DNA of 64,000 nt from Escherichia coli (GTDB lineage: Bacteria; Pseudomonadota; Gammaproteobacteria; Enterobacterales; Enterobacteriaceae), in assembly GCF_029227855.1 (NCBI RefSeq), contig NZ_CP074356.1; one strand, written 5' to 3'. The position numbers are program-made. Position 1 is the stretch's first letter. Each line of letters begins with the position of its first letter. Shown here piece by piece: positions 44,901 through 47,900 of the stretch.

Positions 44901-47900
44901 ACCGTCGGTATCACCGAGAAACCGTCTGCAGAGTTTCTGGCTCGCCTGGGTGAGCGCTATGGTTTCACCCCACCTCATGCACCTGGACATGCTGCAATTG
45001 CCAGCATGCAAGCAATATGTACGGGGCAGGCTCGAGCATTGATCTGCATGGGGGGCAACTTTGCTCTGGCAATGCCAGATCGGGAAGCGAGCGCTGTACC
45101 GTTAACACAATTAGATCTGACGGTACACGTAGCCACTAAGCTTAACCGCTCTCATCTGCTGACCGCACGGCATAGCTATATTCTGCCGGTTCTGGGACGC
45201 AGCGAGATTGACATGCAAAAAAGCGGTGCGCAGGCGGTAACCGTTGAGGATTCAATGTCGATGATTCATGCCTCGCGTGGCGTGTTAAAACCCGCCGGTG
45301 TAATGCTGAAATCAGAGTGTGCAGTGGTCGCGGGAATCGCGCAGGCAGCACTACCCCAGAGCGTGGTAGCCTGGGAGTATCTAGTGGAAGATTATGATCG
45401 CATTCGCAATGACATTGAAGCTGTGCTGCCAGAGTTCGCCGACTATAACCAGCGCATCCGTCATCCCGGTGGTTTTCACCTGATAAATGCAGCTGCTGAA
45501 AGGCGCTGGATGACGCCGTCAGGTAAGGCTAATTTCATTACCAGTAAAGGGCTGTTAGAAGATCCCTCTTCAGCGTTTAACAGTAAGCTAGTCATGGCGA
45601 CAGTACGCAGTCACGATCAGTACAACACGACGATTTATGGTATGGATGATCGCTATCGAGGGGTATTCGGTCAACGAGATGTGGTCTTTATGAGTGCTAA
45701 ACAAGCTAAAATTTGCCGTGTAAAAAACGGCGAAAGAGTTAATCTTATTGCGCTTACGCCAGACGGTAAGCGAAGCTCACGCCGCATGGATAGATTAAAA
45801 GTGGTCATTTACCCTATGGCTGACCGCTCACTGGTGACCTATTTTCCAGAATCGAATCACATGCTAACACTTGATAACCACGATCCATTAAGTGGCATTC
45901 CTGGCTATAAAAGTATTCCGGTTGAATTAGAACCATCAAATTAATTCGCCTCCTCATTTCTTCTGCTGTCATCCGCACAGCAGAAGAATTTCTCATTGAC
46001 CATTGTCGCGCAATTTACTCACATGTGCTAAATTAAACTGCTCGTTATAAGATATATACCTCCGCCTACAGCTGTAAGAAACTCCGCTCAGTACTGAAGC
46101 GCCAGTCCTATTTCCTCTATTCTCCAGCCTGTTATATTAAGCATACTGATTAACGATTTTTAACGTTACCCGCTAAATAAACATATTTGAAATGCATGCG
46201 ACCACAGTGAAAAACAAAATCACGCAAAGAGACAACTATAAAGAAATCATGTCTGTAATTGTGGTTGTCTTATTACTGACACTTACGTTGATAGCCATTT
46301 TTTCGGCAATTGATCAGCTGGGTATTTCAGAAATGGGTCGCATTGCAAGGGATCTTACACATTTCATTATCAATAGTTTGCAAGACTGAAAATAAACAGC
46401 AAATTATAAATATGAAATGTTAAAAAAGTATCGATAAAAACTTTATTGTTTTAAGGAGATAAAATGTCGCTCGTTTGTTCTGTTATATTTATTCATCATG
46501 CCTTCAACGCTAACATTTTAGATAAAGATTACGCCTTCTCTGACGGCGAGATCCTGATGGTAGATAACGCTGTTCGTACGCATTTTGAACCTTATGAGCG
46601 GCATTTCAAAGAAATCGGATTTAATGAAAATACCATTAAAAAATATCTACAATGCACTAACATCCAGACAGTGACGGTGCCTGTTCCTGCGAAGTTTTTA
46701 CGTGCTTCAAATGTACCGACTGGATTGCTTAATGAAATGATTGCTTATCTCAACTCGGAAGAACGCAATCATCATAATTTTTCAGAACTTTTGCTTTTTT
46801 CTTGCCTGTCTATTTTTGCCGCATGCAAAGGTTTCATTACACTATTAACTAACGGTGTGCTATCCGTTTCCGGGAAAGTGAGAAATATTGTCAACATGAA
46901 GCTGGCGCACCCATGGAAGCTGAAAGATATTTGTGACTGCCTGTACATCAGTGAAAGCCTGTTGAAGAAAAAACTTAAGCAAGAGCAAACGACATTCTCA
47001 CAGATTCTTTTAGATGCCAGAATGCAGCACGCAAAAAATTTGATACGCGTAGAAGGTTCAGTCAATAAAATTGCCGAACAATGTGGTTATGCGAGTACAT
47101 CTTATTTTATTTATGCGTTCCGCAAACATTTTGGCAACAGTCCAAAGAGAGTTTCTAAGGAGTACCGTTGTCAAAGGCACACGGGTATGAATACGGGCAA
47201 CACGATGAATGCTTTAGCTATTTGATTATTTGCTAACGAGTAGTCAACCATACACGCTACGTAAGAATTAAATGGGGCAGCTATTCCCTGCCCCGCGTTG
47301 TTTTTAGGCGATATATTTATTGAAATAAATAAGTGACATTCATCACATATTTATGCATTTGCATAACCTGTTGCATGATTATTTATGATCTCAATTCGGA
47401 ATTTTGTCAGTAAAACACAATAATTTATTAAATATCAATAGATTAGTTGTTTATCTGCGAGAAATTACTTAGTAGAACAGAAAGTAATGTCAACAGTTTA
47501 TGGACTGTTATTTCTCTTTTTTTAGCTAAATCTGCTATCTCTTTATGTGACTAACTTCACTTACATCCACTTATTTCTCTTCGTAAAATTACTTTGGAAT
47601 TAAGTACAATAAGAAGAGGAACATTTATGAAGTCTGCATTAAAGAAAAGTGTCGTAAGTACCTCGATATCTTTGATACTGGCATCTGGTATGGCTGCATT
47701 TGCTGCTCATGCGGCAGATGATGTAAAGCTGAAAGCAACCAAAACAAACGTCGCTTTCTCAGACTTTACGCCGACTGAATACAGTACCAAAGGAAAGCCA
47801 AATATTATCGTACTGACCATGGATGATCTTGGTTATGGACAACTTCCTTTTGATAAGGGATCTTTTGACCCAAAAACAATGGAAAATCGTGAAGTTGTCG

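What the first reader, a model, noticed from the sequence alone, without database searches (positions are those of the whole stretch)
46063..46389. EvgA box and the small connector gene safA in front of ydeO
A second EvgA-like box (46063..46080) precedes the 65-codon safA gene, whose product links EvgS/EvgA to PhoQ/PhoP, and safA is followed by ydeO. The whole ydeP-safA-ydeO acid-resistance control module is intact and about 11 kb from gadBC.
Basis: partly seen in the sequence, partly recalled or inferred. Interest (0 to 1): 0.25.

Follow-up and report, generated by a model that had tools for sequence, protein, structure and literature searches.

The report
Known safA-ydeO acid-response operon, intact
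This stretch is the well-known E. coli safA-ydeO acid-response operon with its EvgA binding site, intact and ordinary, apart from an uncommon natural variant of the DNA just upstream of and touching that site.

Summary
Window 46063-46080 (CGCCTACAGCTGTAAGAA) matches the 18-bp EvgA inverted repeat at 16 of 18 positions. It lies 111 bp upstream of an intact 65-codon safA (46192-46389), and ydeO (46464-47225) follows after 74 bp. The only other match in 64 kb lies upstream of ydeP (43405-43422); chance expects 0.10 matches. The window is E. coli chromosome, 99.99% identical to strain JNEC-KY178 and collinear with K-12 ydeP-safA-ydeO. SafA equals the common allele WP_000543389.1, and YdeO and YdeP pass NCBI's equivalog cut-offs. 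gadB starts 10.9 kb after ydeO.

Mapping the recorded K-12 safA promoter puts the box at -60 to -43 and the transcription start at 46123. A terminator follows ydeP and another follows ydeO. None lies between safA and ydeO.

This is already known biology, so interest is low. Two small extras emerged. First, the outermost box base is C here and T in K-12. It sits at the edge of a 63-bp patch that is 25% divergent from K-12 (2.3% locally), and this haplotype occurs in about 9% of complete E. coli genomes. Second, the ydeP and safA promoters are similar beyond the box (29 of 43 bases).

The parts
43405..43422 (+). EvgA box upstream of ydeP (ATCCTACATCTGTAAGAA, 1 mismatch to the consensus)
   Evidence: Pattern search. 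K-12 has AGCCTACACCTGTAAGAA (2 mismatches) at the same place.
43665..45944 (+). ydeP, acid-resistance putative molybdopterin oxidoreductase, 759 aa, intact
   Evidence: ORF. 98.3% nt identity and 5 aa differences versus K-12. NCBIfam NF007406 scores 1828 bits against a cut-off of 1473.
45958..45988 (+). Terminator-like hairpin of ydeP (12-bp stem, T-rich tail), separating ydeP from the safA-ydeO unit
   Evidence: Terminator scan. Invariant in 8 E. coli strains.
46001..46063 (.). Dimorphic 63-bp patch abutting the EvgA box and including its first base. It has 16 differences from K-12 (25%).
   Evidence: Local mean divergence is 2.3%; Poisson P is about 4e-13 for 17 or more differences in 63 bp (16 observed). 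The window-type 40-mer 46046-46085 is exact in 504 of 5372 records. Identity of the 126-bp segment is bimodal.
46063..46080 (+). EvgA box of the safA-ydeO promoter (CGCCTACAGCTGTAAGAA), at -60..-43 relative to the mapped transcription start
   Evidence: Bases 2-18 are invariant in 8 strains except one spacer base.
46123..46123 (+). Transcription start of safA-ydeO, transferred from the K-12 safAp record (+1 = T)
   Evidence: The 81-mer in Table S2 of the PMC12096072 supplement aligns 78/81 to window 46063-46143. Inferred by homology, not measured in this strain.
46123..46191 (+). 69-nt AU-rich 5' leader of safA with no clear Shine-Dalgarno sequence. An in-frame TAA at 46174-46176 closes any N-terminal extension.
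   Evidence: Sequence. Comparison with the 77-aa ORF variants of other strains.
46192..46389 (+). safA, 65-aa small membrane connector protein; one hydrophobic segment at residues 19-37; C-terminal 25 residues predicted periplasmic
   Evidence: ORF. Pfam PF17073 scores 160 bits over 1-65. Identical to WP_000543389.1. Hydropathy.
46390..46463 (+). 74-bp safA-ydeO spacer with no terminator-like hairpin; ydeO Shine-Dalgarno AAGGAG at 46453-46458
   Evidence: Sequence. Terminator scan. 73/74 identical to K-12.
46464..47225 (+). ydeO, AraC-family acid-stress regulator, 253 aa, intact
   Evidence: ORF. NCBIfam NF007407 scores 607 bits against a cut-off of 348. 3 aa differences versus K-12.
47273..47295 (+). 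Terminator-like GC-rich hairpin plus T-run after ydeO (end of the operon)
   Evidence: Coordinates transferred from NZ_AP045174.1, which is 99.989% identical over 38 kb. Intact ORFs.

Best explanation
This is the chromosomal safA-ydeO operon of E. coli with its EvgA-dependent promoter, next to the separately transcribed, also EvgA-dependent, ydeP gene.

Proposed working, taken from K-12: mild acid activates the sensor kinase EvgS. Phosphorylated EvgA then binds as a dimer to the 18-bp inverted repeat at 46063-46080, centred at -51.5, and activates a promoter with weak core elements that starts at about 46123. One transcript carries safA and ydeO and ends at the hairpin at 47273-47295.

SafA is a 65-aa single-pass membrane protein. 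Its C-terminal tail (residues 41-65) contacts the periplasmic sensor domain of PhoQ and switches on PhoQ/PhoP. YdeO is an AraC-type activator that turns on gadE and, through it, the glutamate decarboxylase system, including gadBC 11 kb away.

Shown here: the sequence, position, conservation and statistical non-randomness of the box; intact ORFs; family membership; absence of a terminator between safA and ydeO.

Inferred from K-12 work: EvgA binding, the transcription start, co-transcription, the SafA-PhoQ contact and the YdeO targets.
For: Box significance:
- Two matches in the window against 0.10 expected.
- Both lie upstream of known EvgA targets.
- The consensus was validated on the K-12 evgA neighbourhood. 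All 4 matches there fall in the emrK/evgA, frc and yfdX upstream regions, against 0.23 expected.

Genes:
- The locus is collinear with K-12 and 97-99% identical to it, with all three genes full length.
- It is annotated as safA/ydeO in 5,350 genomes.
- Pfam and NCBIfam scores are far above their cut-offs.
- SafA is identical to the commonest allele among the strains sampled, and PhoQ-facing residues 45-50 and 52-59 are invariant in those strains.

Promoter and operon structure:
- The recorded K-12 safAp 81-mer begins exactly at the box and is 78/81 identical here.
- There are terminator-like hairpins after ydeP and after ydeO and none in the 74-bp spacer. ydeO has a strong Shine-Dalgarno sequence.

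Literature:
- PMC5706723, the bioRxiv 2026 preprint and PMC4222967 describe the EvgA > safA-ydeO > PhoQ/GadE circuit.
Against: Nothing contradicts this reading. Caveats:
- The box has C instead of T at its outermost base, so it matches 16/18 here against 17/18 in K-12.
- The 63 bp upstream are 25% divergent from K-12, so the strength of induction could differ.
- The -10 and -35 regions implied by the recorded start are poor consensus matches. This is expected for an activator-dependent promoter, but it means the start cannot be confirmed from sequence alone.
- evgAS and phoPQ lie outside the window. Many natural EvgS alleles do not respond to low pH (PMC5706723), so the module may be intact yet not acid-inducible in this strain.
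- The EvgA consensus itself was recalled from Masuda & Church 2003, which could not be opened here. It was validated only indirectly.
Confidence: 0.93

Rival explanations
1. The module is structurally intact but tuned differently in this lineage. The T-to-C change at the outermost box base, the 25%-divergent 63-bp patch directly upstream, and changes at -22 and -4 could alter EvgA-dependent induction or the binding of another factor upstream. That would make this a natural cis-regulatory allele of the connector circuit.
For: - The patch has 16 differences in 63 bp against 1.45 expected.
- Identity is bimodal across 5,371 genomes.
- The exact window-type 40-mer occurs in 9.4% of records, and the others sampled carry 2-3 linked differences.
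- The patch ends exactly at box base 1.
- Natural variation in this pathway is documented at the EvgS level (PMC5706723).
Against: - Base 1 is the least constrained half-site position in 12 K-12 half-sites (T8 A3 G1). Bases 3 and 5-8 carry the signal and are unchanged.
- Everything from box base 2 to +20 is otherwise nearly invariant.
- No known regulator site was identified in the patch.
- Intergenic recombination mosaics are common in E. coli and are often neutral.
Confidence: 0.15
2. The module is intact but silent as an acid-response device in this strain, because its input (the EvgS allele) does not sense mild acid, as reported for many natural isolates.
For: PMC5706723 reports that EvgS is unresponsive to pH in MP1 and many other isolates although evgAS is conserved. 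The window is only about 97-98% identical to K-12 across this region, and only 138 of 5,392 records are at least 99% identical to it.
Against: evgS is not in the window, so there is no evidence either way. Conservation of both boxes and of all three genes argues that the circuit is under selection.
Confidence: 0.25
3. The 18-bp match is a chance palindrome with no regulatory role, and safA is a spurious small ORF.
For: The box has two mismatches. safA has no evident Shine-Dalgarno sequence.
Against: - Expected chance matches are 0.10, and two were found, both upstream of known EvgA targets.
- The site coincides with -60..-43 of the recorded K-12 promoter.
- Box bases 2-18 are conserved across strains while the adjacent patch varies.
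- The ORF hits Pfam SafA at 1e-47.
- Published genetics supports SafA function.
Confidence: 0.02

Closest known systems
E. coli K-12 safA(b1500)-ydeO(b1499) operon and its promoter safAp
   Same: Same gene order, lengths, spacer (74 bp) and box position. The promoter 81-mer is 78/81 identical. safA is 98.0% and ydeO 98.7% identical at the nucleotide level.
   Different: Box base 1 is C instead of T. There are changes at -22 and -4. The 63 bp upstream of the box are 25% divergent. SafA differs at residues 22, 44 and 65; among the eight strains compared here K-12 is the odd one at these positions, and the window carries the shared allele.
The ydeP promoter in the same window (EvgA-dependent)
   Same: It shares the 18-bp box and, in register, 29 of the next 43 bases up to the start site, including AxTCCGC and TGAAGC blocks. 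No shuffle of 100,000 reaches this.
   Different: It drives a single enzyme gene 251 bp downstream of the box centre rather than a regulator operon. Its box is closer to the consensus here (1 mismatch).
Other EvgA-box promoters of K-12 (emrKY/evgAS, frc-oxc-yfdVE, yfdX)
   Same: They carry the same inverted repeat TTCYTACA-NN-TGTARGAA, with an invariant TAC core, in upstream intergenic regions.
   Different: There is no similarity beyond the box, and the distances to the start codon differ.
Other small-protein connectors or modulators of sensor kinases (MgrB on PhoQ, Salmonella UgtL on PhoQ, PmrD, MzrA)
   Same: The concept is the same: a small protein made under one two-component system acts on another system (own knowledge for PmrD and UgtL).
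   Different: They are unrelated in sequence. SafA activates PhoQ whereas MgrB inhibits it. All 144 SafA relatives found are at least 71% identical, and every one that carries a source name is from E. coli or Shigella.

Membership tests
SafA (Pfam PF17073, two-component-system connector) | Sequence match to the family model above the curated cut-off, over the full length | tested here: met
   160.3 bits against a cut-off of 27; residues 1-65 on model positions 1-65 of 66. 100% identical to RefSeq WP_000543389.1, annotated SafA.
SafA (Pfam PF17073, two-component-system connector) | Small single-pass membrane protein with a basic N-terminus and a C-terminal periplasmic tail | tested here: met
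   One hydrophobic stretch at residues 19-37, mean Kyte-Doolittle 3.06. The N-terminus has 4 K/R against 2 D/E. The topology itself is inferred.
SafA (Pfam PF17073, two-component-system connector) | Encoded between ydeP and ydeO, immediately upstream of ydeO | tested here: met
SafA (Pfam PF17073, two-component-system connector) | Binds the PhoQ sensor domain and activates PhoQ/PhoP | not testable with these tools
   Known for the K-12 protein. This allele differs from K-12 in the tail at S44G and G65D. R50, R53 and residues 45-50 and 52-59 are unchanged.
EvgA-activated promoter (EvgA box) | 18-bp inverted repeat TTCYTACA-NN-TGTARGAA | tested here: met
   16/18 match. The right half is perfect and the left half matches 6/8, with mismatches only at the two outer bases. 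The consensus was recalled from Masuda & Church 2003 and validated on K-12 targets.
EvgA-activated promoter (EvgA box) | Located upstream of the core promoter of a known EvgA-regulated unit | tested here: met
   The box is at -60..-43 of the recorded K-12 safAp, which is 78/81 identical here.
EvgA-activated promoter (EvgA box) | More conserved than its surroundings across strains | tested here: met
   Box bases 2-18 are invariant in 8 strains except one spacer base, while the 63 bp immediately upstream are dimorphic.
EvgA-activated promoter (EvgA box) | Bound by phosphorylated EvgA; transcription is EvgA-dependent | not testable with these tools
   Needs EMSA or footprinting and a reporter assay.
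safA-ydeO operon (single transcription unit) | No terminator between the genes, a short spacer, and a terminator after the second gene | tested here: met
   74-bp spacer with no terminator-like site. Hairpin plus T-run at 47273-47295.
safA-ydeO operon (single transcription unit) | One mRNA spans both genes | not testable with these tools
   Stated for K-12 in PMC5706723 and the 2026 preprint. RT-PCR is needed for this strain.
YdeO (NCBIfam NF007407 equivalog) | Score above the equivalog cut-off over the full length, with an AraC-type HTH | tested here: met
   606.6 bits against a cut-off of 348, over 1-253 of 253. HTH_AraC and HTH_18 domains found.
YdeP (NCBIfam NF007406 equivalog) | Score above the equivalog cut-off over the full length | tested here: met
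   1828.4 bits against a cut-off of 1473, over 1-759 of 759.

The most novel reading that the evidence does not exclude
The window carries a minority promoter haplotype of safA-ydeO, found in about 9% of complete E. coli genomes. A 63-bp segment, 25% divergent from the majority type, ends exactly on the first base of the EvgA box and changes it from T to C. There are further changes at -22 and -4. If this haplotype changes how strongly or under what conditions EvgA (or an unidentified upstream factor) fires the operon, it would be a cis-regulatory counterpart to the known natural variation in EvgS. It would rewire the link between acid sensing and PhoQ/PhoP in a defined subset of strains.
Probability: 0.12. 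Interest if true: 0.3.

Novelty: already known. Interest (0 to 1): 0.08.

Why it matters
It matters little for discovery. The result is useful as a clean annotation: this strain keeps the EvgA > SafA > PhoQ and EvgA > YdeO > GadE branches, which some isolates such as MP1 have lost.

Two by-products could interest people working on this circuit. One is a sharply bounded, dimorphic promoter-upstream patch that touches the EvgA box. The other is the extended similarity between the ydeP and safA promoters, which suggests the two EvgA-dependent promoters arose by duplication of one module.

Tried and rejected
- **Primary literature on the EvgA box.** I tried to open Masuda & Church 2002, Ma et al. 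2004 and Eguchi et al. 2007. None is held. A full-text search for the consensus string returned only irrelevant hits. I therefore validated the recalled consensus [11 protein letters not shown] on K-12 EvgA targets.
- **Outgroup search.** I scanned 100,044 species genomes for the box-plus-promoter pattern to learn which patch haplotype is ancestral. It returned only two contigs, both 97.5-97.7% identical to the window and sitting in metagenome bins labelled Nanosynbacter and UMGS1713. These are E. coli contamination, so no outgroup was obtained. The pattern was strict, so this does not prove absence elsewhere.
- **Rfam.** A scan of the whole window found nothing.
- **Extended -10 candidate.** I first took the invariant TGtTATATT at 46130-46138 as the safA -10 element. 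I rejected this as the documented promoter because the recorded K-12 start (46123) lies upstream of it. It remains only a consensus match. The generic sigma-70 scan found no promoter between the box and safA, as expected for an activator-dependent promoter.
- **Gene conversion of the patch.** I looked for a paralogous copy of the patch. There is no second copy in the window or near evgA in K-12.
- **Third box-like site.** A 3-mismatch match inside K-12 ydeO is absent from the window and was treated as chance.
- **PhoP and YdeO sites.** Possible sites in the leader, such as the TTAACG-N4-TTAACG repeat at 46150-46165, were seen by eye only. They were not tested and are not claimed.

Full report
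**What is in the sequence**

Window 46063-46080 reads CGCCTACAGCTGTAAGAA. The ORF list gives three genes on the + strand:
- a 65-codon ATG-started ORF at 46192-46389;
- a 253-codon ORF at 46464-47225, 74 bp later;
- a 759-codon ORF at 43665-45944, upstream.

I searched the window with the EvgA consensus TTCYTACANNTGTARGAA. This consensus is recalled from Masuda & Church 2003 and is not available in the held library. The search finds two sites only: 43405-43422 (1 mismatch) and 46063-46080 (2 mismatches). At up to 2 mismatches the shuffled expectation is 0.10, and no shuffle of 100 reached two matches.

**Is the recalled consensus real?**

I could not open the primary papers, and a text search for the motif was fruitless. 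I therefore tested the consensus on the K-12 evgA neighbourhood.
- All four matches in 24 kb fall in the intergenic regions upstream of emrK/evgA, frc and yfdX. These are known EvgA-activated units. The chance expectation is 0.23.
- From the twelve K-12 half-sites, positions 5-7 (TAC) are invariant and position 3 is C in 11 of 12. Position 1 is the loosest (T8, A3, G1).

**Identity of the locus**

- The 1,356 bp from the end of ydeP to beyond ydeO match 5,390 of 5,426 complete E. coli genomes, and are annotated safA and ydeO there.
- The whole window is 99.98-99.99% identical to strain JNEC-KY178.
- From 40073 onward it is collinear, reversed, with K-12 1,566-1,590 kb at 97.9%.
- Against K-12, safA is 194/198 identical (A22V, S44G, G65D), ydeO is 752/762 (3 aa differences) and ydeP is 2241/2280 (5 aa differences). 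All are full length.
- The SafA protein equals WP_000543389.1. In an eight-strain sample it is the consensus allele, and K-12 is the outlier at positions 22, 44 and 65. Residues 45-50 and 52-59 of the PhoQ-facing tail are invariant.
- Pfam SafA scores 160 bits (cut-off 27). NCBIfam YdeO scores 607 (cut-off 348) and YdeP 1828 (cut-off 1473).
- SafA has one hydrophobic segment, at residues 19-37.
- gadB (58106-59506) and gadC (59662-61197) are intact. gadB begins 10,881 bp after ydeO.

**Promoter geometry**

A 2025 paper reprints the RegulonDB entry for K-12 safAp, an 81-mer with the +1 base capitalised (PMC12096072, supplement Table S2). That 81-mer begins exactly with the EvgA box and aligns 78/81 to window 46063-46143.
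- The box therefore occupies -60..-43, with its centre at -51.5.
- The start maps to T at 46123, giving a 69-nt leader.
- The window differs at -60 (T>C, box base 1), at -22 (A>G) and at -4 (T>A).
- The core elements implied by this start are poor consensus matches. The generic sigma-70 scan finds nothing between the box and safA, as expected for an activator-dependent promoter.
- An invariant TGtTATATT at 46130-46138, which I first took for the -10 element, lies downstream of the recorded start. It is only a consensus match.

**Operon structure**

- A 12-bp-stem hairpin with a T-rich tail follows ydeP (45958-45988).
- A GC-rich hairpin with a T-run follows ydeO (47273-47295).
- No terminator-like site lies in the 74-bp spacer.
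- ydeO has a strong AAGGAG five bases before its ATG, whereas safA has no obvious Shine-Dalgarno sequence.
- This fits the published single safA-ydeO transcription unit under EvgA control, with ydeP transcribed separately (PMC5706723; the 2026 bioRxiv preprint; PMC4283999).

**Mechanism**

The mechanism is inferred by homology to K-12. Acid-activated EvgS phosphorylates EvgA. EvgA binds the box and activates safAp. SafA activates PhoQ through its periplasmic C-terminal region. YdeO activates gadE and, through it, the gad genes. The literature also reports that PhoP lowers safA expression and that YdeO feeds back negatively on the promoter. I did not identify sites for either.

None of the binding or expression steps can be tested with sequence tools. 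evgAS and phoPQ lie outside the window. Roggiani et al. showed that many natural EvgS alleles do not respond to low pH. An intact module therefore does not guarantee an acid-inducible one.

**What differs from the reference**

The ydeP-safA intergenic region is only 90% identical to K-12, and the differences are concentrated.
- There are 16 differences within 46001-46063 (25%). The mean over ydeQ-ydeN is 2.3%, or 1.45 per 63 bp. This is the densest 63-bp window in 6.9 kb.
- The patch ends on box base 1.
- Across complete genomes the 126-bp segment is bimodal: 522 are at least 95% identical and 4,847 are at 80-90%.
- The exact window 40-mer that includes the C-variant box occurs in 504 of 5,372 records, or 9.4%.
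- From box base 2 to the start codon, the eight strains compared are nearly invariant.
- There is no paralogous donor sequence in the window.
- A scan of species-representative genomes found no outgroup. It returned only two E. coli-like contigs in metagenome bins.

Box base 1 is the least constrained position, so I expect little effect on EvgA binding. A regulatory difference cannot be excluded.

**Family breadth**

A search of 5.8 billion proteins with SafA returned only 144 clusters. All are at least 71% identical, and every named one is from E. coli or Shigella. This agrees with the statement that safA-ydeO has not been found in other species.

**Verdict**

This is an already known system present in nearly every E. 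coli genome, so interest is low. The minority promoter haplotype and the extended similarity between the ydeP and safA promoters are the only points that go beyond routine annotation.

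Noticed in passing
window 46001-46063: A sharply bounded 63-bp patch is 25% divergent from K-12, against a local mean of 2.3%. 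It ends on the first base of the EvgA box. The haplotype is dimorphic across E. coli, and the window type occurs in about 9% of complete genomes.
   Followed up: partly
window 43423-43465 versus 46081-46123: The ydeP and safA promoters are similar beyond the EvgA box: 29 of 43 bases are identical, ungapped and in register from the end of the box to the start site. No shuffle of 100,000 reaches this. The frc, yfdX and emrK promoters of K-12 share only the box. This suggests duplication of a promoter module.
   Followed up: partly
L003 (strain 7/2) 470-510; protein P0009: A second divergent patch in the safA leader of some strains removes the in-frame TAA and creates an upstream ATG. This gives a 77-aa ORF (MLNVIRLINTFE + SafA), seen in a cluster of 2,029 member sequences. 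RefSeq still annotates 65 aa. The window has the TAA at 46174-46176.
   Followed up: partly
L009 (strain CUVET19-970) 2282-2979: An IS1 element is inserted between ydeP and the safA EvgA box in a canine urinary isolate. This could uncouple or alter the safA-ydeO promoter context.
   Followed up: no
L004 (otter strain A15): ydeP is annotated as frameshifted in this strain while safA is intact. Several SafA clusters in the protein search are truncated or fused variants (for example P0104 and P0093), so natural disruptions of the module exist.
   Followed up: no
L012 and L013 (genome-contig hits): Contigs in metagenome bins labelled Candidatus Nanosynbacter and 'uncultured bacterium UMGS1713' are 97.5-97.7% identical to this E. 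coli region. They are almost certainly E. coli contamination of those bins.
   Followed up: yes
window 46088-46097: A perfect 10-bp palindrome TCAGTACTGA lies at about -35 to -26 of the safA promoter and is invariant in the eight strains compared. No known regulator was assigned to it.
   Followed up: no
window 46150-46165: A direct repeat TTAACG-N4-TTAACG lies in the safA leader (+28 to +43). One copy is broken in the 7/2-type haplotype. It was seen by eye only, and any link to the reported PhoP or YdeO repression of safA is speculation.
   Followed up: no
window 38648-41299 and about 36200-40072: By transfer from the near-identical annotated genome, the window has a full-length fimbrial usher, a chaperone and a LysR-family regulator upstream of ydeS-ydeR-ydeQ. 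Collinearity with K-12 starts only at 40073, and K-12 has only the truncated usher fragment ydeT.
   Followed up: partly
window 28602-34022 and about 1-5943: Two accessory blocks are annotated in the near-identical genome. One is a 5.4-kb ECSE_1600-family autotransporter between lsrK and hipB. The other is a GntR regulator, PTS IIB/IIC/IIA, porin and 6-phospho-beta-glucosidase cluster between eamA and marB.
   Followed up: no
window 43405-43422: The ydeP EvgA box is closer to the consensus here (ATCC..., 1 mismatch) than in K-12 (AGCC..., 2 mismatches). The safA box shows the opposite trend.
   Followed up: yes
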